A DNA stretch of 64,000 nucleotides from Candidatus Babelota bacterium. GTDB taxonomy: Bacteria > Babelota > Babeliae > Babelales > UASB340. Positions 27,510 to 55,939 of the stretch are shown one piece after another. The translations under genes were made by a program, and so were the position numbers. Below the pieces are notes generated by a model that saw nothing but the letters and a program-made list of their open reading frames with translations, did no database searches and had not been told where the DNA came from. Location of the stretch: positions 8,997-72,996 of the forward strand of contig WJIY01000035.1 in NCBI GenBank assembly GCA_014730005.1, read 5' to 3'. Numbering within the stretch: the first letter of the stretch is position 1; every line of letters starts with the position of its first letter.

Positions 27510-27527
27510 AATTAACCTTTATTTAAA

Positions 27528-29174
27528 TTAATAATTTGAAATCCCATGATAATATAAAGATAGAACACCTAAACCGCTATAAGCACATATTACAAATGAC
27601 AAAAGCCCAACCAACAATACCTCTTCAGGATTTTCTCGCCAATTTTTAAAATATTTAAAAATACTATTTACTTTATCCTTAATAACCTGAAAATTCTCAT
27701 CATTTCTATGATTTAAAATAAATTTTCCAACTAAAAACATTATTGGCAAAGATAACAATATATTGGCTTTAAATTCAGTTGACGAAAAAGCTTTATTTTT
27801 ATTTTGCAGCCAAAAGCAAAATGTTAAATCATGTCCTTTTAAAATAAAACTAGATAATTCTTTTTCTATAACTTCAATTGTTTTTATATTTCTAGATTCT
27901 TTAGCACCACGATATTCATACAACAATTCCAAAAATTCATTTTTATTTCTCTTTAAATATGAAATCCATTGATCTTTATATGTTAATGAATTTAAATTTT
28001 TTATAGTTTTACTTAATATAAAAAACTCTTTTATAATCTTGAAAAAAGGATGGTCTAATATTTTAAAAAAAATTTTCTTTTTAACTTGACCTTCATTATT
28101 GGTATAACATTTCAAAGGATTTACTAATTTACTTACTAGGCGAGCAAAATAATTCGTACCTGCAACCAAAGAACGATTATAATATGAATCACAAAACAAT
28201 CCCCAAATTCCCGTTGGTTCAAAAAATAATTTTAAAAATCCAGTTAAAGTCAAAGAAAATTCTGGATCAAAATTAAAAATAATATTTCCATTATCCATGT
28301 GCATCTTTAATGGATAAAAGCTGCAATCTAAATTATATGGCTTATCGAGTAATAATTGTCTCCATTCAGTAATATCTCGCGGACCCAAAAAATATTCTTT
28401 TATAAATATTGAAAATTCAAAAAAAACTATGTATAAAAATATTTTTTTATATAATATATTTTTAAATATTTCTTTATAATCAAAAGAATTTTCTTTTTTT
28501 ATATAATTATTAAGCTCATTTTCTTCTTTTTTTAGCAAACCCTCCAATTCTTTTTTTCTATCATTATCTACAAAAATTTCATCCAATTCGCATTCATATT
28601 CATCTATTTTTTCAAATAGCTTTATCAAAGATAAATAATCATTTTTTATCTTTGTTGTAGCTTTTTCTACAAACAAATTTCGTAAAACATTTTTAAACCA
28701 CCGCTCTGCATATAAATCCATACCCCAAAGAGGGATTTTAACTAGATCACCATTACAAAGTTTTAAATCTATTTTTAGCTTTAATTTATTCGCCTCTTCA
28801 TGAGAAATATTATTATTTAATGTTTTTGCCAATCCAGACAATGGGATCTCTAATGGAACTTGTGCTATCTCTCTGCTTAAAAAATCACAAGCTTCTTTTT
28901 GCTTGTAAAATGCAGGATTTGAAATTTTATCAATCTCTTCTTCTGTTAAAGGTGGGTTGTTTTCATACTCTTTTAAAATTTCTTCTGCTTGAGCAATTGT
29001 TCCTTCGATATCAAAATTTTTTATAATATCAATATCATTTTTTACATCTACATTTTCTTGCACACAAAATAAAAATGACGTATTAAAAAAGATTAATGCT
29101 GATAAAAATAATCCCGCACCAAAATTATAAGACGTAAATGATAGTTTGATAAAATTAAATTGTTTTTTAAACAT
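27528..29174 (-). CDS. Hypothetical membrane protein (548 aa), immediately upstream of the ATAD3-like gene
   Basis: N-terminal hydrophobic segment (GLFLSALIFFNTSFLF), a mid-protein hydrophobic stretch (IFLYIVFFEFSIFI) and two C-terminal TMs. It lies 18 nt from the downstream AAA gene. I recognise no family. Confidence 0.55.
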   Translation of the reverse strand: MFKKQFNFIKLSFTSYNFGAGLFLSALIFFNTSFLFCVQENVDVKNDIDIIKNFDIEGTIAQAEEILKEYENNPPLTEEEIDKISNPAFYKQKEACDFLSREIAQVPLEIPLSGLAKTLNNNISHEEANKLKLKIDLKLCNGDLVKIPLWGMDLYAERWFKNVLRNLFVEKATTKIKNDYLSLIKLFEKIDEYECELDEIFVDNDRKKELEGLLKKEENELNNYIKKENSFDYKEIFKNILYKKIFLYIVFFEFSIFIKEYFLGPRDITEWRQLLLDKPYNLDCSFYPLKMHMDNGNIIFNFDPEFSLTLTGFLKLFFEPTGIWGLFCDSYYNRSLVAGTNYFARLVSKLVNPLKCYTNNEGQVKKKIFFKILDHPFFKIIKEFFILSKTIKNLNSLTYKDQWISYLKRNKNEFLELLYEYRGAKESRNIKTIEVIEKELSSFILKGHDLTFCFWLQNKNKAFSSTEFKANILLSLPIMFLVGKFILNHRNDENFQVIKDKVNSIFKYFKNWRENPEEVLLVGLLSFVICAYSGLGVLSLYYHGISNY

Positions 29175-29324: not shown

Positions 29325-29520
29325 ATCCGCTCACCCTACTAAGCCGCCATAGCCATGACATTAATGGGCGAATGTTGCAGTGATTTTGCAATGTTTACAA
29401 GAATTATATGTTTGCTCCAAAAAAGCTATAGTTGCCAAGAGTCACAATCGAGATGATTCTTCAATGCTATTTTGCAAAAATCACTCAGAATGAACGAGTG
29501 AAAAAATCATATCGAAGAGC
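29325..29520. other. GC-enriched intergenic island with a long imperfect hairpin; candidate structured RNA or gene relic
   Basis: CCGCTCACCCTACTAAGCCGCCATAGCCATGAC is conspicuously GC-rich in AT-rich surroundings. AGTGATTTTGCAA (29379..29391) pairs with TTGCAAAAATCACT (29472..29485), and AAGAAT (29399..29404) pairs with ATTCTT (29456..29461). Confidence 0.3.
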
Positions 29521-29584: not shown

Positions 29585-31945
29585 TTATGATTGTTTCCTA
29601 CTTTTCAAACTTCTTTTTGTTTTAGTTTTTCCTTTCTCTAATTTCTGTTTTTCTTCTTCTACCGCTTCTGAAACTCGAAAATATGGATCCTTGGTTATTT
29701 CTACAGATTTTGGCTGTTTAGCTCCATATGTATAATTATCAATTGGTCTAAATATTCCTTTTCTTGCATCTTCAATTTTTTCTCTTGCAGATTGCTTAGA
29801 TGGTTTAAAGAACCATCTTTGAATAGGATCTTTTTCTTTTGCATATGTATCAACATTAAGACTTTGAAACTTAGCATAATCAAGTTTTAATTGAGTATAT
29901 TCATCTGGAACACCTTCAAAACGAGGTTTGATAATACTTGGACGAATAAAGATATATAAATTAGATCTTTCTTTATTTTTTGTTTTACTTCTAAAAAGAT
30001 TCCCAATTAAAGGAATATCTCCCAGAATTGGAACTTTATATTGATTTTCAGTTAATTTACTTCTTGTAAGTCCACCCAAAACTAAAACTTCACCTGTCCC
30101 AATATTAACTCTCGTTGAAAGAACTCTATCATCAGTATTTGGACTTGTTCCAGTCACTTCTTGAAAGCTTGTAATATCAACATTAATTTTAAGATCAACA
30201 GTTCCATTCAAATTTACCTTAGGTGTTAGTTTTACTAAGGTAGATGCATCTTTATATTCTTTTTTAACTACTGCTTCCGTCCCTGTTCTATTATCCTGTA
30301 ATCCAGCATCAGCTTGACGAGTCTCTTTAGCCTCAACAAAACACTCTTGATAATTATTAGCTACTAAAAATGGTTGTGTAATAATATTGAAATTATCTTT
30401 TTTCAATATTGCTCGAACCAAGCCCCACAAATTTGAACTAGGACCAAACGACATATTTGTTCTAATAATGTTACGATCCGCATTGGTTGTTACAACTTTA
30501 ATATCAGATGAATCTTGCATTGTTCTAAATTGCATATTAATTCCAGCACCAAAATAATTTGGATGTTTTGGTTTAACTTGTGACCATAACTCATCATCTG
30601 TTTTAATCGAAACATCTACAACCATAACTTCAAAAGCAACTTGCGGTTGTGGTTTATCCAATTTATCTATAAATCCTTCTATTCTTTTCCAATCATCCTG
30701 GTTGCAAGCAATAATTAATCTATTGCCACCACCCTGTTGATCTCCCTGCGAAGAATCAGCCGCAATGATAACATCTTCAAAAAATTTATACTCACCAACT
30801 TTAATAGCTTTTCCTACACCCGCAGGAGGATTAACAAGATTAGTTAAAAGTGGTTGTAAATTTTCTGCCTTTGCATATTTAATTTCCTTTATGTGCAATC
30901 TTGATTCAGTTGCAGTAATTGGAACATCAATATATTTATAAACAAAAGCTATAATTTTATCTAAATTCTTTTCGGTACCCAGTAAAATTAAAGAATTATT
31001 TCTAGAATCCGGAATAATTCTTGTATCTTTTGAAAAATAACTGGAAGGTTTTTTAACATTAGAAGGCATAAATCTTATATTTCCTCTCTGTTGATCTCCC
31101 TGAGGAATAATCTCATTAAATAAGGTTACAACATCTTGAACATCTGCATATTTTAAAGGAATAATCTTTATCGATTCTCTCAATCCTCCTTGGTCTAATT
31201 CTTTTACAATTTTCATTGAAGCTTTAATATCAAGACATTTTGCTGTTATTATACAGGCATCAAGATCGCGATTAATTTGAACAGTCCCATCTATCATTGT
31301 AGAAAGAATACCTTGAACATTTTCTGCTTTTATATTTTTTAAAAAATATAAATAACGAACAACTAAATCACTATCAGGAAGTTGCTCCGGCTCTGTTCCT
31401 GTTGCAGATGAATAAAATGGAAGCGGCTGACTTTTATCTTCTACTTTAGGTACAATTCTATAAAGTCCATCAACATTTATAATTGAAAAATTATTCATCT
31501 CCAACAAAGTTAATAAAATATTCCAGGCACTATCTAAAGTTAATGCCTCACGAGTTGATAATGTTACATTGATACCATCAAGCTCCTTACGTGGAATAAT
31601 GTTTATCTTCTTTTGCTCAGACATATAATTTACAACACTTGATAATGACGCATTTTCAAAATTTAAATAAATACCTCCTTTGTTGTTTTTATCTACCTTT
31701 TTTTTATTGGATTCCTTACTTTTTTTATTAGATTTTTCTTGCTTAAACAATTCATTTTGTTCAACTGTAGGATTATTTATAATTTTTACATTAGGCGTAT
31801 TAAGAGCCTCAGTCTCATTTACTTGATTTATTGCTTTACCGGATTTTTTTAAATCTATAGATAGTAAAAAAAACGGTGTCATCATTAAAAATAACAGCAC
31901 CATTTTTTTTGATTTGAATAATTTTATAATTTCTTTTATCATCAA
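29585..31945 (-). CDS. Secretin (GspD/PilQ superfamily), copy 2 of the dual-secretin block
   Basis: Signal peptide and an N0-type start (GIYLNFENASLSSVVNYMSEQKKINIIPR). The secretin core ends VPILGDIPLIGNLFRSKTKNKERSNLYIFIRPSIIKPR and is followed by a 111-aa C-terminal extension. The true start may be the internal MVLLFLMM. Confidence 0.88.
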   Translation of the reverse strand: MMIKEIIKLFKSKKMVLLFLMMTPFFLLSIDLKKSGKAINQVNETEALNTPNVKIINNPTVEQNELFKQEKSNKKSKESNKKKVDKNNKGGIYLNFENASLSSVVNYMSEQKKINIIPRKELDGINVTLSTREALTLDSAWNILLTLLEMNNFSIINVDGLYRIVPKVEDKSQPLPFYSSATGTEPEQLPDSDLVVRYLYFLKNIKAENVQGILSTMIDGTVQINRDLDACIITAKCLDIKASMKIVKELDQGGLRESIKIIPLKYADVQDVVTLFNEIIPQGDQQRGNIRFMPSNVKKPSSYFSKDTRIIPDSRNNSLILLGTEKNLDKIIAFVYKYIDVPITATESRLHIKEIKYAKAENLQPLLTNLVNPPAGVGKAIKVGEYKFFEDVIIAADSSQGDQQGGGNRLIIACNQDDWKRIEGFIDKLDKPQPQVAFEVMVVDVSIKTDDELWSQVKPKHPNYFGAGINMQFRTMQDSSDIKVVTTNADRNIIRTNMSFGPSSNLWGLVRAILKKDNFNIITQPFLVANNYQECFVEAKETRQADAGLQDNRTGTEAVVKKEYKDASTLVKLTPKVNLNGTVDLKINVDITSFQEVTGTSPNTDDRVLSTRVNIGTGEVLVLGGLTRSKLTENQYKVPILGDIPLIGNLFRSKTKNKERSNLYIFIRPSIIKPRFEGVPDEYTQLKLDYAKFQSLNVDTYAKEKDPIQRWFFKPSKQSAREKIEDARKGIFRPIDNYTYGAKQPKSVEITKDPYFRVSEAVEEEKQKLEKGKTKTKRSLKSRKQS

Positions 31946-31959
31946 GGGTCCCTATAGTT

Positions 31960-32505
31960 TTACCCTACATACTTTTTGGTAGCTATAGTAAGATCAAAAT
32001 CTATTTTTTTATTATCAGTCTTTTTAATAACTAATTCTTTTATATAAACCATTTCAGTTTTTTCTAACAAATCAAGAATATTTACTAATTTTTGTGTTGT
32101 TTGATTTTTAAAGGTTGCAGAAATAACAACCTCATCAAATCTATCACTTCCCAGCAAAGGTTGAGTTATAGCTTCCCAGCCAGGTACAGGAAGAATTTGA
32201 TTTTGACTACAAAATTCTTCAAAAAAGGCTTTAATACTAAAATCTCTATTCTGCTCCAATAATTTTTGTAATTCTTGTTCTTTAGATTCCAATTCCTCAT
32301 ATTCTTGAATTATTTTTGTTGTTTTTCTAACTGTAGTCTCCATATTTTTTATTTTATCAAGTAAATTAGAACTTTTACTGTATATATAATAATTAATTAA
32401 TAACACTAAAATTGTTACGGTTATTAAAAATATAGCCAAATATCGTTCAAAATCTTTTTTATTAAGACTTTGTAAATAAGATGCAAAATCAACAAATATC
32501 TTCAT
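31960..32505 (-). CDS. PilO/GspM-like bitopic inner-membrane protein
   Basis: 181 aa with one TM (YLAIFLITVTILVLLINYYIY), a coiled coil and a small C-terminal alpha/beta-type domain. It sits between the pilM/N-like gene and a secretin. Confidence 0.55.
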   Translation of the reverse strand: MKIFVDFASYLQSLNKKDFERYLAIFLITVTILVLLINYYIYSKSSNLLDKIKNMETTVRKTTKIIQEYEELESKEQELQKLLEQNRDFSIKAFFEEFCSQNQILPVPGWEAITQPLLGSDRFDEVVISATFKNQTTQKLVNILDLLEKTEMVYIKELVIKKTDNKKIDFDLTIATKKYVG

Positions 32506-32506
32506 A

Positions 32507-34189
32507 TTACAATTCTTTTAATCGCAATTTTACAAAAAATTTTATTCCTTTATCTTCCACCAACCTTGAATCAATCTCTTCTTTTTCATCCCATAGTTTT
32601 AAAATTTTAGATTCAGAAAATCTTTTTTGAAGTTCTGCAAAATATCTAAAATGATCACTTCCAGTCTTTGATCTAAAAAATCCCTCAATTTCAATTTTTG
32701 TATCTGAATCTTGTTCAGATATAGCAATGGTTTCTATTGTTACATCAAATTTTCGTTTATCAATTATATTTGTCAATTCTTGCAAAATTACTAATGGACG
32801 AATTCCAGTTTTTTCAAACAACATCCATATTTCTTTTTTATCCTCAAGTACATTTTCCGCTTTTTGCGATAATTTTTGTAAATTAACCTGCCTTGGCAAG
32901 CTAATCTCTTTGGGAATCATTCTTCTTAATTTTGACTTTTCTCTATCTTCAATTCTTTGAATAAAAGATGAAAGCTTATTTATTTGAAAATAACCTCTAA
33001 TTATTAAAACAGTAAAAATCAAAAATAAAAGTAAACTAGCAGTTACAAGTTGACTTTTTACTAATTTTTTTTGTGGAAGAGAAAACTCCTTGCGCCTTAA
33101 ATCAAAATTTGCTTGTTGCTCTGAAGGCAAAGCGGTTCCCAAGGCAACTAAATATTTATTCCAACTCGAAATATATTCTTTTATTTTGTTTTTAAACTTA
33201 GTATCAACGAAAATTTTTTCAAAAGAAAAAACTTCACAAGGTATTTGTAATAAGTTTTGACTAAAACGAGAAAGTCCTTTTAATTCTGAATATTTACCTG
33301 TAAAAAACATTTTTGATATTTTTTGATAATCAACAATTTTCAAACTAAAAGAATTTAAAGTAAATTGAATATCATTAAAAAAATTTATAATATGTTTTTG
33401 TAAAGATTTTTCATAATTCGAATCACCTGTTGGATCCAAACCATATTTTTTTAATTTTTCTTGTGCCTGTTGCAAAGATATTTCTATTTCATTACTAACT
33501 GTCTTCAAAACAGTTAAAATTCCTCGAGGTATAATTCTTGTTAATCTCAAGCATCCTTCATCCAAAAAAGCAATCTGTGTTGAATGCGCTCCTAAATCTA
33601 TAATCACACTAGATTTTTCTATACTTTTATATTCAGGAATTTGTTTATAAAGACTATAAATTGCAAAAAGATCTACTGTCAAACAAGCAGGATCCACACC
33701 AGCTTGCAAGTACATATCAAGAGTTCGTTGAATATCTTCTTTTCTCACAGCCGCTACTAATATTTGTGAAGTTTTATCTTCTTTTGATTGTTTACTAATG
33801 ATAAAATCAATAATAGCTTCATCAACAGAAAAAGGCAGCATTGGTTCAATTTCATATTCTAAAATCATTCTGATTTTATCTTCATCTAAAAATGGAACTT
33901 TCAATTCTTTAAAGACAACTAAAGAAGCCGATAAAGCAATTCGAAGTTGATCATACTTTTCCATTCTTGCTACAACTTCTTTAATTGCTTGTGTAGCTCT
34001 TTCAGAATATGTTTGAATAGGACCATCTTCGATAGTCTGATCAATTAACTCTTCAATAATATTCTTTGATCTTTTGGCATAAATTTTTGCACAACTAACA
34101 ACATCTTCTTGTATAGTTAAACCTAAAATTTTTTGAGCATAAAGTCTTTTTGATCCAATTCTCGGAGGTAAAAAAATTCTTCTTATCAT
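32507..34189 (-). CDS. PilM-PilN fusion protein (GspL-like architecture)
   Basis: The first ~350 aa are an actin-like/PilM-type domain (ILGLTIQEDVV..., VIIDLGAHSTQIAFL). Next come a TM (LVTASLLLFLIFTVLIIRGYF) and a ~170-aa periplasmic domain. The start overlaps the upstream secretin stop by ATGA. Confidence 0.65.
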   Translation of the reverse strand: MIRRIFLPPRIGSKRLYAQKILGLTIQEDVVSCAKIYAKRSKNIIEELIDQTIEDGPIQTYSERATQAIKEVVARMEKYDQLRIALSASLVVFKELKVPFLDEDKIRMILEYEIEPMLPFSVDEAIIDFIISKQSKEDKTSQILVAAVRKEDIQRTLDMYLQAGVDPACLTVDLFAIYSLYKQIPEYKSIEKSSVIIDLGAHSTQIAFLDEGCLRLTRIIPRGILTVLKTVSNEIEISLQQAQEKLKKYGLDPTGDSNYEKSLQKHIINFFNDIQFTLNSFSLKIVDYQKISKMFFTGKYSELKGLSRFSQNLLQIPCEVFSFEKIFVDTKFKNKIKEYISSWNKYLVALGTALPSEQQANFDLRRKEFSLPQKKLVKSQLVTASLLLFLIFTVLIIRGYFQINKLSSFIQRIEDREKSKLRRMIPKEISLPRQVNLQKLSQKAENVLEDKKEIWMLFEKTGIRPLVILQELTNIIDKRKFDVTIETIAISEQDSDTKIEIEGFFRSKTGSDHFRYFAELQKRFSESKILKLWDEKEEIDSRLVEDKGIKFFVKLRLKEL

Positions 34190-36942
34190 GCCAAACTCCT
34201 CCGCTTCAATCCTGAAGTTTGGCGCCTCTTCATTTTATTTGATAATTGATTAAGATTTATATTTTCTTTAATCCTAATATTGTCTGTTCTTCTATAATTC
34301 GACTTAACATTTTCATTATTAGCTAACCTAGAATGCCTGTTAAACTGTTGCTTTTCCTCATTTATAGACTGCTTATGGGTATTATTACTATTTTCTATTT
34401 GATTAGCTTCAGGTTTTGTAATAATTAAAGATTTTAACTCTTCTCGTTTTTCATCATCTACAGATATTTTCTTATCCTGAGTATCCTGATGAATAGTCAT
34501 TTGATCTCCTGCAATTAACTCCTTTAATTTTTTTCTCTTATACTCTAAATCTCTATCTTTTTTTTGGTCATCTGTTTTAGATTTAATTTCTTGAATTCTA
34601 CGTTCAGCTTGTAAATCTGCATCTAAAATATCTTCTTCTTCTTCTTTTTCATCTTTTAAATGTACTCGATAATAAGGATCGTGTTTTATATCAACAGTAG
34701 TGGGTTGATATCTTGCATTTGCAAAATCCGTAACTTTATGAGAATAATCCTCTTTTTCCGGATTAAAAAACCAATTATGAATAGGATCTTTAGTTTTTTT
34801 AGTTTGAACCGCATCTTCTATATAATCAGTGGCATCATGAAGTTTCATTCTTGTATAAAGATTTATACCCGGCTGTTGGCGTGGTTTTATAATTGTTGGT
34901 GACATAAAAACAAAAACATAATTTTTTTGAACTTCACGTTTTTTATTTTTAAACATCCATCCAAGCCCAGGAATATCACCTAGAAGAGGAGTTTTATTTT
35001 GACTTTCCGTTACCTTTGTCCTAATAAAACCACCTAAAACTAATACCTGACCATCTGCTACAGATACATCTGTTGTTAATGTTTTTTCATCTTTATTACC
35101 CAAGCTAGCATTTGTAAACTCACTAAAAACAACATTAATTGTTAATCTTATAATTCCATCCAAATTTATTTGAGGGGTTATTTTTAAATCAGTATTGGCT
35201 GAAACATACGTATAACCTTTTAATGCTCCACCTGCAGTTTCCTGTTGTACGACATGTTGAGTACTTCCAACAACAATATTAGCCTGAGTCTTATTAGTTA
35301 CAGTAAAAAATGGCTGAGATAAAATGCTTGCATTTGATTGGCTCTTTAATGCCTTAAAAATTCCCCAAATATTTTCACCCTTACCAAATGTTAAAATACT
35401 TGAACCAAGTCCTCCAGTTAATCCATAAAACATATTTCCAAGCAAACTATTTTCTGCAACACCTTGTTGGTATCCTTTTTCTACTGTTCCTGCAAAAGTA
35501 GGAGACTGAAAATTAACACCTTTTCCAATTTGACCTTCATATTTATTACGAATTGCACCGCCTAATTCCTTTTCATCATCCATATTAACAGTTACTATTA
35601 ATGTTTCTATTCCAACTTGCGGTTGAGGCTTATCTAAATCTTCAATCGTTTTTTTTAATAACTTCCAATCTTGTTTATCAGTAGTTGATACAATCAAGCG
35701 ATTACCATCTTTATCAACTTGAAATTTCATCGGTTTGAAATATTTTACCCCTCCTCGTACTGCTCCATATTTAGATGCAACTTCTTCTTTGCTTGCAGTT
35801 ACAGATTCCAAAATCTCTTTTGCTTGAGCTGCATCTATATGCTGCAACTCATAAATATGCAAGGGCGATTGCGCACCTTTTAATTCTTTATCAATATTAT
35901 TTGTAATAAAATCTTCAATTTTTTTAATTGATTTTTGATTGCCAAGCAAAATCAAAGAATTTGTTCTCTTTTCATCGATAATTCTGGTTGTTGGAGAAAA
36001 ATATTCAAGAGAACTTTCAGCTTGTTTACCAAGCAATCGAGCAATTGGATTTGGTTGCTCTGGTCTTTGAATTAAACTATCCAGTAATCCTTTCACATCT
36101 GTTGCATTTGCCCTTTTTAATTTTATTACAACAACCGATTCTTGCAATCCTGTCTGATCTAATTCACGAATAACTTTCATTGCAGATCTAATATTAAAAG
36201 ATTTATCAGTAATAATCATTCCATTTATTTCAGGATATAAAACTAAAGAATGCTCCGGACTCAACATACTTTTTAATAAATCCTGTATCGTGGTAACACT
36301 TATATTTTGCAAAAAAGGAACATATCTTATATTCGCATCACTTTCTGGTAAAGTATCTAAGGGAACATTTATATACGAAGGCAAAGGCTGAACTGTTTTT
36401 TGTTTTTTAGGAATAACAACACTTACATCACCCCTTTCGATAATGCTAAATCCAGCCATATCAAGAACTGTCAAAAATACTCTCCAAGCACCTTCAACCG
36501 TTAATGGTTCACGGATTGTTAAAGAAACTTTTACTCCTTGAAGAGCCTTATCTGGCATTAAATTAATTTGTTTAAGTTCTGCAATACGATTTATAAAATT
36601 TGAAAGCTCCGCATTCTCAAAATTTAAATATATTTTTCCATCACAATCGATTTTTTTATTACTCAATTTAGGAAATTCTCTCTCTTCTTTATTTTCATTA
36701 ATTAAATTATTATTATCTTTTTTCTTTGTAAAATCCTCAACCTTTTCATCTGTAGGTATATCACTATTTAATATTTCAACAACACTTTCTTTTTCTATTT
36801 TTTCAACTAATTTTTCTTTTTGATCACTTAAAACATTTTTATCTGAAAAATCCTCCGTTGATCTTTTTTTTAATTGAGCAGTCTGCGCCTGCATAGTTAA
36901 AACACAAATAAAAGGAATCAATAAAATTATAAATTTTTTCAT
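34186..36942 (-). CDS. Secretin (GspD/PilQ superfamily), copy 1 of the dual-secretin block, with a long C-terminal tail
   Basis: Signal peptide (FICVLTMQAQTA) and an N0-type block (KIYLNFENAELSNFINRIAELKQINLMPD). The secretin core ends TPLLGDIPGLGWMFKNKKREVQKNYVFVFMSPTIIKPR and is followed by a 230-aa extension. Confidence 0.88.
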   Translation of the reverse strand: MKKFIILLIPFICVLTMQAQTAQLKKRSTEDFSDKNVLSDQKEKLVEKIEKESVVEILNSDIPTDEKVEDFTKKKDNNNLINENKEEREFPKLSNKKIDCDGKIYLNFENAELSNFINRIAELKQINLMPDKALQGVKVSLTIREPLTVEGAWRVFLTVLDMAGFSIIERGDVSVVIPKKQKTVQPLPSYINVPLDTLPESDANIRYVPFLQNISVTTIQDLLKSMLSPEHSLVLYPEINGMIITDKSFNIRSAMKVIRELDQTGLQESVVVIKLKRANATDVKGLLDSLIQRPEQPNPIARLLGKQAESSLEYFSPTTRIIDEKRTNSLILLGNQKSIKKIEDFITNNIDKELKGAQSPLHIYELQHIDAAQAKEILESVTASKEEVASKYGAVRGGVKYFKPMKFQVDKDGNRLIVSTTDKQDWKLLKKTIEDLDKPQPQVGIETLIVTVNMDDEKELGGAIRNKYEGQIGKGVNFQSPTFAGTVEKGYQQGVAENSLLGNMFYGLTGGLGSSILTFGKGENIWGIFKALKSQSNASILSQPFFTVTNKTQANIVVGSTQHVVQQETAGGALKGYTYVSANTDLKITPQINLDGIIRLTINVVFSEFTNASLGNKDEKTLTTDVSVADGQVLVLGGFIRTKVTESQNKTPLLGDIPGLGWMFKNKKREVQKNYVFVFMSPTIIKPRQQPGINLYTRMKLHDATDYIEDAVQTKKTKDPIHNWFFNPEKEDYSHKVTDFANARYQPTTVDIKHDPYYRVHLKDEKEEEEDILDADLQAERRIQEIKSKTDDQKKDRDLEYKRKKLKELIAGDQMTIHQDTQDKKISVDDEKREELKSLIITKPEANQIENSNNTHKQSINEEKQQFNRHSRLANNENVKSNYRRTDNIRIKENINLNQLSNKMKRRQTSGLKRRSLA

Positions 36943-36952
36943 AAATTAGTCC

Positions 36953-38080
36953 CTATCTCCTAACCCTATGATCCATCGATCTTTTTTTCATATTTTCAAG
37001 CAATCTTTGCCTGATATCAGAAATAACTTTTTGTCGCTCAGGAGTTTGATGTTGTTTTTCAAATTTTTTAAGTTGTGCTTCTCGTTGCTGTTCAGAACTC
37101 ATTTTAAAACTCGGCACACCCTTAAGATCATCTTCTTTTGCAGATTCAATAAAAAACTGTTTTTTAGGCTTTTCTATTTCTGCTAATTTATAATTTATTT
37201 TTTTTTCATAATCATTTCTTTTTAATAGCAATTTAATTTCATCTCCCAACTGCATCTGCATAATATTATCATAAACTTTAATTCGGTTTTTATAATTCCT
37301 CAAATCCAGATCATTAATTGATAACAAAATATCATTTTTATTCAAACCAATAATAGATCCAATATCATTTGGTTCAATAATTCCAACCTTTATTCCAATA
37401 GCCTCTCCATCTTTATACGCTGTACTTAAATTCAATTCCTCTATTAAATTTCCCATAGTAGGTATTTTTTTAATAAATTCATTTGGATCAATTTCAAAAT
37501 TTTGCTCATCAATTTTTTTAATCACATATTGCCATTTATTTTTAGTTTGTTCATCTGGCGGCATTAATTCATCTTTTCTCAATAAATAAATTTCTTGTTG
37601 ACCATTTGCACGAAGAATTATAACCTTATTTTTTTCTATTTTTACAACCTGACCATCTTTTATTTTATCTGACAAATGATAAACCTTTTCCTTTCCTGTT
37701 TCATCGATTATCATTGCCACACTTTTATTTTCATTTGATGCAAAAACAATACCTTTAATAGATATATTTAAAGGATCTACAAATTCTTGTACTTGCACAG
37801 GAGGAGGAGGAACAAATTTTGGAGGTCGAAACTCCGGAACAGGCGTAATTAAACTTTTCTGCAATATCTGTTTTTCTTCAGGAGTAAAAGTATCAAACAA
37901 ATCTTGTTTATAAATTTTCGAAATATTAATCGCTATAGGTATTTTTTTTTTTTCAAATTCTTTAGTGATCGGTCTTACACTAAATATAGGCGGTTTTTGC
38001 TGTAAAATTATATTTAAAAACAGCATCATACCAAATATTAATAATAATGAACTATTTAAAACCCACAATGATAATCTCAT
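36953..38080 (-). CDS. GspC-like protein (TM, HR/PilP-like domain, PDZ domain)
   Basis: N-terminal TM and a Pro-rich linker (PPKFVPPPPVQ). The HR-type block is LNISIKGIVFASNENKSVAMIIDETGKEKVYHLSDKIKDGQVVKIEKNKVIILRANGQQEIYL. The C-terminal PDZ-like block is GIKVGIIEPNDIGSIIGLNKNDILLSINDLDL. Confidence 0.7.
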   Translation of the reverse strand: MRLSLWVLNSSLLLIFGMMLFLNIILQQKPPIFSVRPITKEFEKKKIPIAINISKIYKQDLFDTFTPEEKQILQKSLITPVPEFRPPKFVPPPPVQVQEFVDPLNISIKGIVFASNENKSVAMIIDETGKEKVYHLSDKIKDGQVVKIEKNKVIILRANGQQEIYLLRKDELMPPDEQTKNKWQYVIKKIDEQNFEIDPNEFIKKIPTMGNLIEELNLSTAYKDGEAIGIKVGIIEPNDIGSIIGLNKNDILLSINDLDLRNYKNRIKVYDNIMQMQLGDEIKLLLKRNDYEKKINYKLAEIEKPKKQFFIESAKEDDLKGVPSFKMSSEQQREAQLKKFEKQHQTPERQKVISDIRQRLLENMKKRSMDHRVRR

Positions 38081-38108
38081 ATCAAAATACCTTGTTTTAT
38101 AACACTTG

Positions 38109-38138
38109 AAGATAATTTTTGATTGTTTAAATTGTCAA
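38109..38138 (-). promoter_or_regulatory. Candidate internal promoter ahead of the gspC-like gene
   Basis: On the minus strand there is TTGACA (38138..38133), an 18-nt spacer, then TATCTT (38114..38109). This lies in the only sizeable gap (87 nt) of the block, and AAGG precedes the ATG. Confidence 0.3.
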
Positions 38139-38167
38139 GAAAATCCTGATACATTTAATATGATAGC

Positions 38168-39157
38168 TTATGGTGAAGGAATTGTTCTAAGTATCTTTTG
38201 TACAATCTGATCAGTGGTTACATTTTCAGCCTCAGCTTGATATGTAAGCAAAATTCTATGCCTTAAAACATCGGTAGCTATAGACTTAATATCATCAGGA
38301 ACAACAAAATGCCTTTGTTTTAAAAAAGCATATGCTTTTGCTGCATGATGTAATGTTAATGTAGCTCGAGGAGAAGCACCGTATTCAATAAGACTGCTTA
38401 CTTCTTCAAGTCCTGATATTTCTTTAGGAAATCTCGTCGCAAATACAATTTTCAAAATATATTCCACCACTTTTTCATCTATATAAATTTGTTCAACTAA
38501 CTTTTGACTCTCTCTAATCTCTTGTTTACCAATTACCTTATTTATTTCTTCGGGTTGAAAAACTTTTTCAATAATCAATCTTTCTTGTTCATATTCTGGA
38601 TATGTGATTAGCAATTTAAACATAAAACGATCAACTTGCGCTTCAGGCAATCTATATGTCCCTTCTTGTTCAATGGGATTTTGAGTGGCCAACACCAAAA
38701 AAGGAACTTCCAAATGATAAGTTTTATCTCCTATCGTTACCTGGTGTTCTTGCATTACTTGCAATAATGCGGATTGTACTTTTGCAGGTGCCCTATTTAT
38801 TTCATCAGCAAGCACTAAGTTTGCAAAAATCGGGCCTTTTTTTGTTTGAAATTCCTGAGTTTTTGGATTATAAATCAAGGTGCCAATTAAATCTGCAGGT
38901 AATAAATCGGGAGTAAATTGTATTCGTTTATATTCTAATCCAATAGCTTGCGCAATACATTTAATTAAGGTCGTTTTTGCCAAACCAGGAACACCCTCTA
39001 ATAAAATATGCCCATTACAAAGCAATCCAATAAATATACGTTCAACAATTTCATCTTGTCCAATAATACCTTTTCTTACTTCGTTTTTTAATGTATTCCA
39101 CCTAATGGCATGTTCTTTTATAATCTGTGTAATTTCTTGTGTATTTTCAGATCGCAT
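38168..39157 (-). CDS. MoxR-family AAA+ ATPase
   Basis: GHILLEGVPGLAKTTL, FTPDLLPADLIG and LADEINRAPAKVQSALLQVMQEHQVTI are classic MoxR blocks. The protein is 329 aa. Confidence 0.88.
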   Translation of the reverse strand: MRSENTQEITQIIKEHAIRWNTLKNEVRKGIIGQDEIVERIFIGLLCNGHILLEGVPGLAKTTLIKCIAQAIGLEYKRIQFTPDLLPADLIGTLIYNPKTQEFQTKKGPIFANLVLADEINRAPAKVQSALLQVMQEHQVTIGDKTYHLEVPFLVLATQNPIEQEGTYRLPEAQVDRFMFKLLITYPEYEQERLIIEKVFQPEEINKVIGKQEIRESQKLVEQIYIDEKVVEYILKIVFATRFPKEISGLEEVSSLIEYGASPRATLTLHHAAKAYAFLKQRHFVVPDDIKSIATDVLRHRILLTYQAEAENVTTDQIVQKILRTIPSP

Positions 39158-39169
39158 AAAAAATCCCCA

Positions 39170-53351: not shown

Positions 53352-55034
53352 TTATTTAATTATAGTAGGCGAAATAAAAATCATTAATTGCTCATCTGAT
53401 TTTGTTTTTTTCTTACCCTTAAAAAGATATCCCAACAATGGAATGTCTTGCAATAAAGGAATCCCATTACGATTATTGCGTTTATCATCATAAATTAAAC
53501 CACCAATTAGTGTTGTTTCTCCACTTTTAAGTAAAACCCTATTGCTCGATTTTGTTGTAACAATAATAGATTTTTTTGCATCAAATGAAGTTGTCGATGT
53601 ACCATCTTTCACATATGAATGTTCAACATAGATATCCAAAAATACAGATTCTTTATCTGGAGAAACAATAGGCTTAACTTTAAGTTTCATTCCCAAATCT
53701 TTATAATTTATTGTATTTATATCACGCAATGAACCTTCTATTCTCTCCTGAACACTTGTCTCAATTGGAACCTGCTCACCCACTAATATTTCTGCTGGCT
53801 CCTCACTATTTACAAGCAATGATGGTTTTAAAATTGTTTTGATTTCATTTTTACTCTCTGCAGCATTAAGTACTAAATTTAATCTTTTATTATTCAAATT
53901 TCTTCCACCAAAAATTATTGGTAGATTTAAAAATTGGCTTGCTGTTCTTGGCAATAAATTTAAAGACCAATCCATAAGATCATCAGGTGGGATATCTCCT
54001 TTTCCACCAGTAGTTATTGGACCATATCCAATATAATTCCATCCTGACCTACTGACAGAAGCACTTCGATTATAAACACCTGAAACTTGTAAGCCTAAAC
54101 TTTCTTCAAAATATTTATTAGCTATTATAATTCTAGTTTCAATACGAATTTGTGAAATTTTTTCATCTATTTCCTTTAAAAAAGTCTTAAATACTTGTAT
54201 ATCTTTCTTTCTACCTTTAAAAAAAATTTTCCTACTATTATCATCAAAAACTAAATAATAATTATGCTTATCCGTTTTGCCATTAATGATACCTTCCCAC
54301 AATTTTTCAATGCGAAGCTTTAATCCCTCAGAAAATTTCGTATGACGAATTAAAAAAAAATCTGAAACGATATCTTTTAATTCGTCTTCCCTTATTTGTG
54401 ATTCAAACATTAAAATCGCATCTTCTAATCTAACAACACGCCAAACATTAAAATTTTTTACTAGTGCTAATTGAGGTTTTACAGATGAAAAAATTAATTT
54501 TAAAGCAAACGAAGCAGGAACATCTTGAAGATTAAGTGTACTAATTTCACCTTTAATCTCCGAATCTACAATAAAATCTAAATTTAAAATTTTTCCAATT
54601 AATTCAACAATCTCTTTTATGTCGATATTCTTAAGCCGCAACGACACTGTTTTTTCTACAAATACAGGATCATCATAATAAGAATCCAAAATTGACCGTG
54701 CTTCGGCAGAAATTTTTTGCTGTGTCCCTATAATTTTTTTGTCCTTATGATTTGAAATTGTACACAAAAAATTATTCAATTTATATTTGTCGCCAATTAA
54801 TTCATCTGCTTTTTTTTCCAATTCTTTATCACTACTTTTAACAATATTTTTTACGACATTTCCGATATCTTTTAAATCCTTTTCCTCTTCCTTTTTACGT
54901 TGTGCAGCTAAAAGATTAGAAGTATATGGCGGAATATATTTCAATTTTGGATCGGGTTTAGGAAGAAATAAATCATTTCCTTTTATAACAAAGAAATTTG
55001 GTAATACTAAAAGCAAAATAATTTTTTTAACCAA
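53352..55034 (-). CDS. pilQ: Secretin, PilQ-like (third secretin in the window)
   Basis: Signal peptide and an N0/STN-type block (VSLRLKNIDIKEIVELIGKILNLDFIVD). The secretin core ends GIPLLQDIPLLGYLFKGKKKTKSDEQLMIFISPTIIK at the C-terminus, with no extension. pilO/pilP-like genes precede it. Confidence 0.82.
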   Translation of the reverse strand: MVKKIILLLVLPNFFVIKGNDLFLPKPDPKLKYIPPYTSNLLAAQRKKEEEKDLKDIGNVVKNIVKSSDKELEKKADELIGDKYKLNNFLCTISNHKDKKIIGTQQKISAEARSILDSYYDDPVFVEKTVSLRLKNIDIKEIVELIGKILNLDFIVDSEIKGEISTLNLQDVPASFALKLIFSSVKPQLALVKNFNVWRVVRLEDAILMFESQIREDELKDIVSDFFLIRHTKFSEGLKLRIEKLWEGIINGKTDKHNYYLVFDDNSRKIFFKGRKKDIQVFKTFLKEIDEKISQIRIETRIIIANKYFEESLGLQVSGVYNRSASVSRSGWNYIGYGPITTGGKGDIPPDDLMDWSLNLLPRTASQFLNLPIIFGGRNLNNKRLNLVLNAAESKNEIKTILKPSLLVNSEEPAEILVGEQVPIETSVQERIEGSLRDINTINYKDLGMKLKVKPIVSPDKESVFLDIYVEHSYVKDGTSTTSFDAKKSIIVTTKSSNRVLLKSGETTLIGGLIYDDKRNNRNGIPLLQDIPLLGYLFKGKKKTKSDEQLMIFISPTIIK

Positions 55035-55050
55035 CCTCCAACTCCTCTTT

Positions 55051-55389
55051 TTAAATAATTACTCTTAATTCTTTTTTCTCTCCATCTTTTTCTAAAAAAA
55101 CTTTATCTAAAAAAATTGCAACAATTTTATAACCCCAAATAATGTCATTCAAAAAAACAACTTCTCGTTGTTTATTCCATTCCAAAATAGCTCCAATTTT
55201 ATTGTTGCACCTAATAATTCCACAAACTTCTATCATTTTTTCTTTTCTATTAATCTCACAATTATTTTTATCATTTCTTGATCCAAAAAAGGGATCTGGA
55301 ATCTCTATTGATAAACATATGAAATAAAAACTAAACGAAAATATTATCAAGATAAATTTTATAAAATATTTATATCTTAATATCTTCAA
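55051..55389 (-). CDS. PilP-like small periplasmic protein
   Basis: 112 aa. Hydrophobic N-terminus, then DPFF and a beta-sandwich-type block (VCGIIRCNNKIGAILEWNKQREVVFLNDIIWGYKIVAIFLDKVFLEKDG). This is the same pattern as the HR domain of the gspC-like protein. Confidence 0.5.
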   Translation of the reverse strand: MKILRYKYFIKFILIIFSFSFYFICLSIEIPDPFFGSRNDKNNCEINRKEKMIEVCGIIRCNNKIGAILEWNKQREVVFLNDIIWGYKIVAIFLDKVFLEKDGEKKELRVII

Positions 55390-55939
55390 AATCCAAAAAC
55401 CTAAATTTTGCTATTAAAACAACCTTATTATTTTTTTTTCGTTCAAACTCAATACTTTTAAATTTTATTCCCATAATATTTTTTTCGAGTTCATTTAAAA
55501 ATAAAACTGCATCTTTAAACAAACCTTTTGCATTTAATACATAATACTTTTTACAATAAAAATTTTTATCATCATTTTTTTTTGGTTCTAAATGCAAACA
55601 TTCCATGTTATTTTTTTTTAACGAGCTCAAAGTAATATCTAAACCACAATTTTTTTTAAGCTCATAAATAAACTTCTTAAATTGTACATTTAAAATTTTA
55701 CTTTTTTGTTCCTGATCTACTAATAAACTTAATTTTTTTTTAAATTTTTTTTGTTCCTTGTCCATTTGATTACATAATTTGTTCTGATTCAAAATACAAT
55801 TTTTTTTGGGAATATAAAAAAATAGCATCCAAACGGATGCTATAAAAATAAAAATACAAAATGAAAAACATATCCTAAATTTCCTCGGAACCCCCCTTAG
55901 CAAAGAAATTAACCTACTTTCGTTTAATAAGTTTGCCAT
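55370..55939 (-). CDS. PilO-like bitopic membrane protein
   Basis: 189 aa with a TM (ICFSFCIFIFIASVWMLFFYI), a coiled coil and the block YYVLNAKGLFKDAVLFLNELEKNIMGIKF. It lies upstream of the pilP/pilQ-like genes. Confidence 0.5.
   Translation of the reverse strand: MANLLNESRLISLLRGVPRKFRICFSFCIFIFIASVWMLFFYIPKKNCILNQNKLCNQMDKEQKKFKKKLSLLVDQEQKSKILNVQFKKFIYELKKNCGLDITLSSLKKNNMECLHLEPKKNDDKNFYCKKYYVLNAKGLFKDAVLFLNELEKNIMGIKFKSIEFERKKNNKVVLIAKFRFLDFEDIKI

What the first reader, a model, noticed from the sequence alone, without database searches (positions are those of the whole stretch)
29585..38080. Dual-secretin envelope module: gspC-like, secretin, pilM/N fusion, pilO/gspM-like, second secretin
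- Five co-directional genes are separated by 10, -4 (ATGA overlap), 1 and 14 nt.
- Both secretins (918 and 786 aa) have their own signal peptide.
- Both have an N0-type N-terminus (KIYLNFENAELSNFINRIAELKQINLMPD and GIYLNFENASLSSVVNYMSEQKKINIIPR).
- Both have a complete secretin core (..LLGDIPGLGWMFKNKK.. and ..ILGDIPLIGNLFRSKT..).
- They are old, intact paralogues rather than a recent duplicate or pseudogene.
- Canonical T2SS (gspC-M) and T4aP (pilMNOPQ) operons carry a single secretin.
- Here one set of inner-membrane alignment proteins (HR+PDZ GspC-like, GspL-like PilM-PilN fusion, PilO/GspM-like) is bracketed by two outer-membrane channels.
- The 64-kb window contains no GspE/PilB ATPase, GspF/PilC platform, pseudopilin or prepilin peptidase.
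- Possible interpretations are a hetero-oligomeric secretin, two alternative channels served by one platform, or a previously undescribed secretion or uptake apparatus.
Basis: partly seen in the sequence, partly recalled or inferred. Interest (0 to 1): 0.78.

Follow-up and report, generated by a model that had tools for sequence, protein, structure and literature searches.

The report
Type II secretion operon, two secretins
A parasite-phylum bacterium (Dependentiae) carries a tight five-gene operon with one set of type II secretion "alignment" proteins flanked by two different, intact outer-membrane pore genes. This layout is conserved across the phylum, departs from the textbook one-pore system, and has been noted in the literature only as a gene count.

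Summary
On the minus strand, 29585-38080 encodes gspC-like (HR+PDZ), secretin D1 (918 aa), a PilM-PilN fusion with GspL architecture (560 aa), a PilO/GspM-fold protein (181 aa) and secretin D2 (786 aa). The spacings are those reported.

- **Secretins:** both are full GspD-type proteins (N0, N1-N3, secretin core, plus a shared lineage-specific C-terminal extension). They are 34% identical and collinear.
- **Source and conservation:** the window is a Candidatus Dependentiae MAG. In 50 species-level relatives the order C-D1-L-M-D2 is kept. 39 loci have both secretins complete, the other 11 are cut by contig ends, and one lineage has four.
- **Phylogeny:** D1 and D2 form one clade (100% NJ bootstrap) that excludes other GspDs. 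The duplication is therefore old and phylum-specific.
- **Divergence pattern:** the paralogues are most alike in N0/N1, the part that docks to GspC, and least alike in the barrel and gate.
- **Rest of the machine:** a third, PilQ-type secretin has its own small partner genes. Published Babela gene counts give 3 secretins, 2 GspE, 2 GspF and 1 PilM-like protein.

Best reading: one T2SS-type platform serves two distinct homo-oligomeric channels. A mixed ring is not excluded. "Two gspD copies in all TM6 genomes" was published in 2016, so I rate this a new variant of a known kind, of moderate interest.

The parts
36953..38080 (-). GspC-like connector: N-terminal membrane anchor, HR domain (about aa 103-163), PDZ-like domain (about aa 245-299)
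   Evidence: Pfam T2SSC 32.6 bits (cut-off 27) and PDZ_2 17.1 bits, sub-threshold. NCBIfam GspC_delta E 1.6e-22 over aa 51-298 and TIGR01713 E 4.7e-19, both below the equivalog cut-offs. Orthologue present upstream of D1 in every related locus with room.
34186..36942 (-). Secretin D1 (918 aa): signal peptide, low-complexity linker, N0, N1-N3, secretin core, conserved C-terminal extension (aa ~687-765), variable K/E-rich tail
   Evidence: Pfam Secretin, Secretin_N x3 and GspD N0. NCBIfam GspD TIGR02517 312 bits (cut-off 351) against PilQ 152 bits. Aligns over aa 106-687 end to end with solved 15-mer GspD structures 5wln, 5wq8 and 5wq7.
32507..34189 (-). GspL-architecture protein: complete PilM-type actin-like cytoplasmic domain (aa ~20-355), one TM helix, periplasmic ferredoxin-like (PilN/GspL-type) domain (aa ~480-557)
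   Evidence: Pfam PilM_2 98.8 bits and T2SSL 28.7 bits. AF2 model pLDDT 84.8. Foldseek: PilM 5eou/2ych with target-normalised TM-score (TMt) 0.77-0.81, cyto-GspL 4pht/1yf5 TMt 0.53-0.64. 120+ full-length relatives, all named ones Dependentiae.
31960..32505 (-). GspM/PilO-like bitopic protein (181 aa): TM helix, long coiled helix, C-terminal alpha/beta domain
   Evidence: No Pfam or NCBIfam family and no PDB sequence match. AF2 pLDDT 83.9. Best Foldseek hits are PilO 3jc8_Oa (E 3.3e-4), PilO 2rjz/5uvr (TMt 0.51-0.58) and EpsM 1uv7 (TMt 0.55-0.66).
29585..31945 (-). Secretin D2 (786 aa): same architecture as D1, 34% identical, collinear from N0 to the C-terminal extension
   Evidence: Pfam Secretin 124.7, Secretin_N 62.6 and N0 38.0 bits. 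NCBIfam GspD 278 bits against PilQ 139 bits. BLASTP against D1: 241/699 identities, E 7e-132.
38081..38167 (-). Intergenic gap upstream of gspC-like, with a sigma-70-like promoter match (TTGACA-18-TATCTT, 38138-38109)
   Evidence: The number of such matches in the region is no more than chance, so this is only a candidate. No sigma-54 consensus is present.
29481..29501 (-). Terminator-like hairpin plus T-run about 84 nt downstream of the D2 stop codon; candidate end of the transcription unit
   Evidence: 4 sites found against 3.1 expected, so weak. Synteny in relatives also breaks immediately after D2.
53352..55939 (-). Context, not part of the module: third secretin D3 (PilQ-type, 560 aa) preceded by two small ORFs (189 aa bitopic; 112 aa with a weak HR/PilP-like pattern)
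   Evidence: Pfam Secretin 143 bits and N0 30 bits. NCBIfam PilQ 200 bits against GspD 163 bits. About 100 Dependentiae orthologue clusters. The same three-gene module is present in TM6 GW2011_GWF2_28_16.

Best explanation
This is the outer-membrane and alignment half of the Dependentiae type II secretion (T2SS-type type IV filament) machine, transcribed as one unit gspC-gspD1-gspL-gspM-gspD2.

Proposed mechanism (inferred):
- GspL (a PilM-PilN fusion) and GspM (PilO-like) form the inner-membrane scaffold. This scaffold recruits a GspE ATPase, a GspF platform protein and pseudopilins, all encoded elsewhere in the genome.
- The single GspC reaches across the periplasm with its HR domain and docks onto the N0 domain of a secretin.
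- Two paralogous secretins, D1 and D2, each assemble their own homo-oligomeric outer-membrane channel. Both have kept a GspC-compatible N0/N1 base, while their barrels and gates have diverged.
- The same platform can therefore feed two different exits. These might handle different cargo classes, or one might pass secreted proteins and the other a surface filament.

Shown: gene content, architecture, paralogy, phylum-wide conservation and the pattern of divergence. Inferred: the C-N0 contacts, homo-oligomery and the division of labour.
For: - **Component identities:**
- **Tight operon:** gaps of 10, -4, 1 and 14 nt.
- **Conservation:** the order is kept in all 50 species-level Dependentiae loci. 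39 have both secretins complete, and none lacks one where the contig has room. Synteny ends right after D2.
- **Phylogeny:** D1+D2 form a clade with 100/100 NJ bootstrap that excludes E. coli GspD, six other GspD-like proteins and the D3/PilQ group.
- **Both paralogues are under constraint:** every domain is conserved in each, with commonest-residue frequency 0.56-0.76 in D1 and 0.44-0.69 in D2.
- **Divergence pattern:** same-genome D1-D2 identity is highest in N0 (0.44) and N1 (0.38), about 2x the identity to outside GspDs. It is lowest in the gate and barrel (0.26-0.35, about 1.3x).
- **Rate covariation:** after removing a housekeeping background, residual correlation is D1-D2 0.77, C-D1 0.60 and C-D2 0.56, against at most 0.35 between any of the five module proteins and a housekeeping neighbour except M-MlaE (0.46).
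- **Symmetry:** solved T2SS secretins are deposited as 15-chain homo-oligomers. An odd number does not fit a strictly alternating 1:1 ring.
- **One lineage has four secretins:** in L047 both D1 and D2 were duplicated again in tandem, all four intact. This is easier to reconcile with independent channels.
- **Parts inventory in Babela massiliensis:** 3 secretins, 2 PulE, 2 PulF, 1 PilM-like, 1 PulO, no PilT (PMC4378268 supplement).
- **The third secretin has its own partners:** D3 has two small partner ORFs of its own. GspC is therefore left to serve D1 and D2.
- **Precedent (my own knowledge, not tested here):** in P. aeruginosa the orphan secretin XqhA can substitute for XcpQ.
Against: - No experiment and no multimer model was possible, so homo- versus hetero-oligomery is untested.
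- Strict co-occurrence and co-transcription, together with the strongest rate covariation being D1-D2, fit a mixed complex equally well.
- The covariation analysis rests on 15 genomes and non-independent pairwise distances. Paralogues may also covary simply because they share a membrane environment.
- The gspE/F/G genes of this particular genome were not seen. The inventory comes from another species via the literature.
- The NCBIfam equivalog cut-offs for GspD, GspC and GspL are not reached.
- The deep branching order of the D1 and D2 groups is unresolved: D2 monophyly 53%, D1 monophyly 14%.
Confidence: 0.5

Rival explanations
1. D1 and D2 co-assemble into one hetero-oligomeric secretin, either as a mixed ring or as two interacting rings. 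The operon would then encode a single channel built from two polypeptides.
For: - Obligate co-occurrence in one operon in every locus with room.
- Identical domain architecture and a shared lineage-specific C-terminal extension conserved in both paralogues.
- The highest residual rate covariation of all pairs is D1-D2, at 0.77.
- The eukaryotic mitochondrial T2SS also carries two GspD-core paralogues (GspD and GspDL), which its authors read as an elaboration of the pore (PMC8134430) and a later review as a possible multi-protein channel (PMC10128026).
Against: - Barrel and gate regions, which form the subunit-subunit contacts, are the least conserved between the paralogues: 0.26-0.35, only about 1.3x the identity to foreign GspDs.
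- Solved T2SS secretins are homo-15-mers.
- L047 carries four paralogues.
- No bacterial heteromeric secretin was found in the literature searches.
Confidence: 0.2
2. The two secretins belong to two different filament machines that share the C/L/M scaffold. One GspE/GspF pair secretes proteins through one secretin. The other GspE/PilB-GspF/PilC pair extrudes a type IV pilus through the other secretin. This is the published idea that one gspD replaces pilQ.
For: - Babela has two PulE and two PulF but one PilM-like protein.
- L is closer in sequence and fold to PilM than to GspL.
- Yeoh et al. 2016 and Deeg et al. 2019 proposed a gspD/pulD channel for the pilus.
Against: - A separate PilQ-type secretin (D3) with its own two partner ORFs exists. 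It is conserved across the phylum, so a pilQ substitute is not needed.
- Both D1 and D2 score as GspD rather than PilQ.
- No pili were seen on Babela, according to the text quoted.
Confidence: 0.2
3. One copy is a redundant or decaying duplicate with no distinct role, retained by chance or by general genome collinearity.
For: - Upstream housekeeping genes (TIM-SecG-MlaE-MlaF-RR-MoxR) are also syntenic, so the local gene order is generally stable.
- D2 is split by a frameshift in 3 loci and D1 in 2 loci out of 50.
Against: - Both copies are intact in 39 of 39 loci with full coverage.
- Both are conserved in every domain across lineages whose L proteins are only 31-55% identical.
- The duplication predates the sampled radiation.
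- These are reduced parasite genomes, in which useless 2.4-kb genes are not expected to persist (inference).
Confidence: 0.04

Closest known systems
Canonical proteobacterial T2SS (Gsp/Pul/Eps/Xcp; e.g. E. coli K-12 gspC-O, locus L051)
   Same: GspC with an HR domain, and a GspD secretin with N0-N3 plus core that aligns end to end with solved GspDs. Also a GspL-type bitopic protein with an actin-like cytoplasmic domain, and a GspM-fold protein. The C-D and L-M gene adjacencies are also shared.
   Different: - Two secretins in one operon instead of one.
- E, F, G-K and O are not in the cluster, nor within 10 kb in 50 relatives. In Babela the one PulF gene examined stands alone.
- The L cytoplasmic domain is a full PilM fold rather than the reduced GspL domain.
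- The secretins carry a lineage-specific conserved C-terminal extension.
- All NCBIfam scores are below the equivalog cut-offs.
Type IVa pilus alignment subcomplex PilM-PilN-PilO-PilP-PilQ (e.g. E. coli hofMNOPQ, locus L052; P. aeruginosa PilMNOPQ)
   Same: Best fold matches of L (PilM) and M (PilO). The logic is the same: an inner-membrane scaffold linked to a secretin N0 by an HR/PilP-type domain.
   Different: - PilM and PilN are fused into one protein.
- The connector is GspC-like with a PDZ domain, not a PilP lipoprotein.
- The secretins fit GspD, not PilQ (312 and 278 bits against 152 and 139 bits).
- There are two secretins.
- A separate PilQ-type gene (D3) exists elsewhere in the window.
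Alternative or orphan secretins serving an existing T2SS (P. aeruginosa XqhA with the Xcp machine). Recalled from my own knowledge, not tested here.
   Same: One assembly platform is able to use more than one secretin.
   Different: XqhA is an unlinked, dispensable back-up gene in one species. Here both secretins are co-operonic, ancient and universally retained in a phylum.
Mitochondrial T2SS-derived system of some protists (GspD + GspDL; PMC8134430, PMC10128026)
   Same: Two paralogues of the secretin core co-occur in one T2SS-derived system. That work speculates about an elaborated or mixed pore.
   Different: The eukaryotic proteins are split, with the core separated from the N domains, and one of them is highly divergent. 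Here both are full-length GspDs. No evolutionary link is shown.

Membership tests
Type II secretion system (T2SS, Gsp) | Outer-membrane secretin GspD with N0, N1-N3 and a secretin C-domain | tested here: met
   Both D1 and D2 are above the Pfam gathering scores for Secretin, Secretin_N and GspD N0. Both are best NCBIfam hits to GspD, although below the equivalog cut-off (312 and 278 against 351 bits). D1 aligns over aa 106-687 with solved GspDs.
Type II secretion system (T2SS, Gsp) | GspC: bitopic protein with an HR domain (plus PDZ or coiled coil) linking the platform to the secretin | tested here: met
   Pfam T2SSC 32.6 bits against the cut-off of 27. PDZ is only sub-threshold. GspC_delta E 1.6e-22, below its cut-off.
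Type II secretion system (T2SS, Gsp) | GspL: actin-like cytoplasmic domain, one TM helix, periplasmic ferredoxin-like domain | tested here: met
   The topology and folds are seen in the AF2 model. Pfam T2SSL 28.7 bits against 25.5. However, sequence and fold are nearer to PilM, and NCBIfam GspL scores only 16 bits.
Type II secretion system (T2SS, Gsp) | GspM: small bitopic protein with a ferredoxin-like periplasmic domain, encoded next to gspL | tested here: inconclusive
   No sequence family. The AF2 model matches both PilO and EpsM with modest scores (E 3e-4 to 1e-2, TMt 0.5-0.66). Gene position and topology fit.
Type II secretion system (T2SS, Gsp) | GspE ATPase, GspF platform, GspG-K pseudopilins and GspO peptidase in the same genome | not testable with these tools
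   Absent from the 64-kb window and from about 20 kb around the operon in 50 relatives. Present elsewhere in Babela according to published COG tables. The rest of this genome is not available.
Type II secretion system (T2SS, Gsp) | One secretin species per machine (pore is an oligomer of a single polypeptide, as stated in PMC10128026) | tested here: not met
   There are two intact co-operonic GspD paralogues, conserved in 39 of 39 fully covered loci. Whether they share one ring is unknown.
Type II secretion system (T2SS, Gsp) | Secretes folded periplasmic proteins across the outer membrane | not testable with these tools
   No functional data. The Babela paper predicts that the T2SS is the only secretion system.
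Type IVa pilus PilMNOPQ subcomplex | Separate PilM and PilN proteins | tested here: not met
   A single 560-aa fusion in the window and in more than 120 relatives.
Type IVa pilus PilMNOPQ subcomplex | PilQ-type secretin (PilQ profile, often with AMIN domains) and a PilP lipoprotein | tested here: not met
   D1 and D2 score higher on GspD than on PilQ. No AMIN domain is found. The connector is GspC-like. The PilQ-type gene of the window is D3, which lies elsewhere.

The most novel reading that the evidence does not exclude
The Dependentiae T2SS would be the first bacterial secretin machine whose outer-membrane conduit is built from two different secretin polypeptides. It could be a mixed ring or two physically coupled rings docked on one GspC collar, with lineages such as L047 elaborating this to four. 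That would overturn the rule that a bacterial secretin pore is a homo-oligomer. It would also give a bacterial counterpart to the two-paralogue pore proposed for the mitochondrial T2SS.
Probability: 0.2. Interest if true: 0.85.

Novelty: new variant of a known kind. Interest (0 to 1): 0.55.

Why it matters
Dependentiae (TM6/Babelota) are widespread obligate parasites of protists. The T2SS is the only recognisable secretion system in the cultured Babela, and nearly half of the proteins of another cultured member, Chromulinavorax destructans, carry signal peptides. This operon is therefore probably their main export gate towards the host.

A universally retained second secretin on a single GspC-L-M scaffold has two implications. 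Either secretin choice is a way to sort cargo, or secretin pores can be heteromeric. Both ideas touch open questions in T2SS biology: how substrates are selected, and how the platform couples to the pore.

The finding also corrects the published suggestion that one gspD stands in for a missing pilQ, because a PilQ-type third secretin is present across the phylum.

It gives concrete targets for cryo-ET and for AlphaFold-Multimer: GspC HR against the two N0 domains, and D1-D2 lateral interfaces.

Tried and rejected
- **Sequence identification of M:** Pfam, NCBIfam, a PDB profile search and hhalign against E. coli GspM and HofO all gave nothing. Only the AF2 model with Foldseek was informative.
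- **Structure prediction with orthologues taken from the loci:** I had to spend a homologue search on M.
- **Sigma-54 promoter:** none was found upstream of the operon despite the adjacent NtrC-type regulator. I do not claim that regulator controls the operon. NCBIfam places it nearest NtrX/NtrC, not PilR.
- **MoxR as part of the system:** the MoxR ATPase lies directly upstream in most loci but is missing between the regulator and gspC in L013, L017 and L023. It sits within a longer run of syntenic housekeeping genes, so I treat it as a neighbour.
- **Literature on two-secretin systems:** searches for two, tandem or heteromeric secretins found no bacterial precedent for co-operonic paralogues. 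The library is open-access only, so absence is not proof.
- **Whole-genome inventory of gspE/F/G for this organism:** not possible. I used the Babela supplementary tables instead.
- **One secretin inserting into a host membrane:** considered and set aside. Both paralogues keep strongly conserved N0-N3 periplasmic domains, and both covary with GspC.

Full report
**1. Observation**

The region 29585-38080 holds five co-directional minus-strand ORFs:
- C, 36953-38080, 375 aa.
- D1, 34186-36942, 918 aa.
- L, 32507-34189, 560 aa.
- M, 31960-32505, 181 aa.
- D2, 29585-31945, 786 aa.

The gaps between them are 10, -4, 1 and 14 nt. The window is AT-rich, about 27% G+C.

Pfam places both D1 and D2 above the gathering scores for the secretin core (122.8 and 124.7 bits, full model length). 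They also pass for Secretin_N and for the GspD N0 domain.
- C passes T2SSC (32.6 bits against a cut-off of 27) and has a sub-threshold PDZ.
- L passes PilM_2 (98.8 bits) and T2SSL (28.7 bits).
- M has no sequence family.

D1 and D2 align collinearly from N0 through a roughly 80-aa extension beyond the secretin domain, with 241/699 identities (34%).

No prepilin motif or GspE-type Walker box occurs in the window. tblastn with E. coli GspE, F, G-K, L, M, O and HofM-P finds nothing in the window.

**2. Source and identities**

The L protein is identical to GF322_03490 of a Candidatus Dependentiae bacterium MAG. It has more than 120 full-length relatives at 38-72% identity, and every one that a source assigns to a taxon is Dependentiae, Babeliales or TM6.

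NCBIfam gives the following:
- D1 and D2 fit GspD best (312 and 278 bits, against PilQ 152 and 139 bits).
- C fits GspC best (GspC_delta E 1.6e-22).
- L fits PilM and the Amuc_1101 family.
- All of these scores are below the equivalog cut-offs, so these are divergent members.

D1 aligns over residues 106-687 with solved GspD secretins that are deposited as 15-chain assemblies.

An AF2 model of M (pLDDT 83.9) has a TM helix, a long helix and an alpha/beta domain. Its best PDB matches are PilO (3jc8_Oa, 2rjz, 5uvr) and EpsM/GspM (1uv7), with modest scores.

An AF2 model of L (pLDDT 84.8) has three parts:
- A complete PilM-type actin fold, with target-normalised TM-score (TMt) 0.77-0.81 to PilM and 0.53-0.64 to cyto-GspL.
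- A TM helix.
- A C-terminal ferredoxin-like domain.

L is therefore a PilM-PilN fusion, which is the GspL architecture.

**3. Conservation**

A scan of one genome per species returned 50 loci. BLAST labelling of their ORFs shows (regulator)-MoxR-C-D1-L-M-D2 in every one.
- Both secretins are essentially complete in 39 loci.
- In the other 11 the contig ends on the relevant side. No locus lacks a secretin where there is room.
- In five loci one secretin is split by a frameshift (D1 in L022 and L049; D2 in L026, L029 and L046). Whether these are real or assembly errors is unknown.
- Upstream, TIM-SecG-MlaE-MlaF-regulator-MoxR is also syntenic. Downstream of D2, synteny stops at once.
- A terminator-like hairpin follows D2, and a promoter-like match sits in the MoxR-gspC gap. 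Such matches are no more frequent than chance in this AT-rich DNA.
- None of the 50 loci carries gspE/F/G/O within about 10 kb.

**4. History of the paralogues**

I built NJ trees from 91 and then 65 secretins. The second tree has E. coli GspD and HofQ, nine unrelated secretins and six D3-type proteins (five homologues plus the window's own D3) as outgroups.
- All upstream and downstream copies form one clade with 100/100 bootstrap. This clade excludes every other GspD.
- The main-lineage D1 and D2 groups, and the D1 and D2 groups of a divergent lineage (L047-L049), are each supported at 100%.
- The order among these four groups is unresolved (D2 monophyly 53%, D1 monophyly 14%).
- Gene position agrees with one ancient duplication.
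- L047 has four intact secretins (748, 689, 759 and 786 aa), produced by a further tandem duplication of each paralogue.

**5. Pattern of divergence**

Every domain is conserved within each paralogue. Same-genome D1-D2 identity by region is as follows:
- N0 0.44 and N1 0.38, about twice the identity to outside GspDs.
- Gate and barrel 0.26-0.35, about 1.3 times the identity to outside GspDs.
- The C-terminal extension is lineage-specific (0.13 identity to outgroups). It is conserved within each paralogue and 0.32 identical between them.

I also ran a rough rate-covariation test on 15 genomes, removing a housekeeping background.
- Residual correlations are D1-D2 0.77, C-D1 0.60, C-D2 0.56, C-L 0.44 and C-M 0.40.
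- Correlations between the five module proteins and the housekeeping neighbours stay at or below 0.35, with one exception (M-MlaE 0.46).
- This is weak evidence, because the sample is small and the distances are not independent.

**6. The rest of the machine**

The window holds a third secretin, D3 (53352-55034). It fits PilQ best (200 bits against 163 bits for GspD).
- It is preceded by a 189-aa bitopic ORF and a 112-aa ORF with a faint GspC-HR/PilP-like pattern.
- The D3 family has about 100 Dependentiae clusters. The same three-gene module is present in TM6 GW2011_GWF2_28_16.

Published COG tables for Babela massiliensis and the TM6SC1 single-cell genome give these counts (PMC4378268 supplement):

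| COG family | Babela | TM6SC1 |
|---|---|---|
| Secretin | 3 | 2 |
| PulE | 2 | 2 |
| PulF | 2 | 2 |
| PilM | 1 | 1 |
| PulO | 1 | 1 |
| PulG | 3 | 0 |
| PilT | 0 | 0 |

The one Babela PulF gene that I read in that table stands alone among unrelated genes. Three secretins therefore face two motor-platform pairs and one PilM/GspL-type scaffold.

**7. Prior knowledge**

- Yeoh et al. 2016 reported that all TM6 genomes have two gspD copies and no pilQ. They suggested that one gspD copy replaces pilQ.
- Deeg et al. 2019 mention a 'derived pulD channel'.
- The Babela paper predicts that a T2SS is the only secretion system.
- None of these papers describes the C-D-L-M-D operon, its phylum-wide order or the PilQ-type third secretin.
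- Searches for bacterial two-secretin or heteromeric secretin systems found nothing comparable.
[quoted passage not shown] It contrasts this with the mitochondrial T2SS, which has GspD and GspDL.

**8. Interpretation**

The best-supported reading (confidence about 0.5) is a T2SS-type scaffold, GspC-L-M, that can dock through the single GspC onto either of two distinct homo-oligomeric GspD channels. The evidence is:
- The GspC-facing N0/N1 base is the part kept most alike, while the pore itself diverged.
- Both secretins covary with GspC.
- Solved T2SS secretins are odd-numbered homo-oligomers.
- One lineage multiplied both paralogues.

The rivals are:
- A heteromeric pore (about 0.2). It is favoured by obligate co-transcription and the strong D1-D2 covariation. 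It is disfavoured by the poorly conserved barrel.
- Two filament machines sharing the scaffold, one per secretin (about 0.2). This is compatible with the two GspE/F pairs, but D3 removes the need for a pilQ substitute.
- A redundant copy (about 0.04).

The docking contacts, the oligomeric state and the division of labour are all inferred, not shown.

**9. Verdict**

This is a real, ancient, phylum-wide T2SS variant with two co-operonic secretins. Its parts belong to known families. The gene count was already published. The architecture and its implications were not, as far as the searched literature shows. I rate it a new variant of a known kind, with interest 0.55.

Noticed in passing
window 53352-55939 (minus strand); L053 9154-11668: A third secretin of PilQ type (560 aa, ending exactly at the secretin domain) forms a conserved three-gene module. 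Upstream of it are a 189-aa bitopic protein and a 112-aa protein with a faint GspC-HR/PilP-like pattern. The published statement that TM6 genomes lack pilQ appears to be outdated.
   Followed up: partly
L047 5696-16811: A divergent Babeliales MAG (JARLHJ010000034.1) has gspC, two secretins, L, M and two more secretins. All four secretins are intact (748, 689, 759 and 786 aa). They arose by separate tandem duplication of the upstream and the downstream paralogue.
   Followed up: partly
protein P0200: A D3-type Dependentiae-like secretin (45% identical over 79% of D3) is filed in EukProt under a protist transcriptome labelled 'Spiro4'. This suggests a Dependentiae parasite or contaminant in that eukaryotic data set. 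Care may be needed when secretin or Gsp homologues are reported from such transcriptomes.
   Followed up: no
window 38168-40471 (minus strand): A MoxR-type AAA_3 ATPase (about 62-76% identical across the phylum in all but one, truncated, locus) and an NtrC/NtrX-like sigma-54-type response regulator sit directly upstream of the operon in most relatives. MoxR is missing at this position in L013, L017 and L023. No sigma-54 promoter consensus was found in front of gspC.
   Followed up: partly
window 687-765 of D1 / 674-752 of D2 (protein coordinates; DNA about 34648-34884 and 29690-29926): Both secretins carry a conserved, lineage-specific C-terminal extension with the motifs KDPI..WFF.P and DPY[YF]RV. 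It has no match in outside GspDs (13% identity). It may be an S-domain replacement or a docking site for an unknown partner.
   Followed up: partly
window 25923-29174 (minus strand): Downstream of D2 lie a 548-aa multi-pass membrane protein with no family in Pfam or NCBIfam and a 528-aa Cdc48/SpoVK-type AAA ATPase with an N-terminal membrane or coiled-coil region. Neither is conserved at this position in relatives. AAA+ proteins of this COG (COG0464) are expanded in Babela, with 13 copies.
   Followed up: no
window 22618-24327 and 15684-17606 (minus strand): A HerA-type (DUF87) ATPase and an anaerobic ribonucleotide reductase (NrdD) are encoded in the window. A NurA nuclease, the usual HerA partner, was already listed among phylum-specific genes in the Babela paper.
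   Followed up: no
L022, L026, L029, L046, L049: In five MAGs one of the two secretins is split into two overlapping ORFs (D1 in L022 and L049; D2 in L026, L029 and L046). These are single frameshifts that could be assembly errors or the start of gene decay.
   Followed up: no
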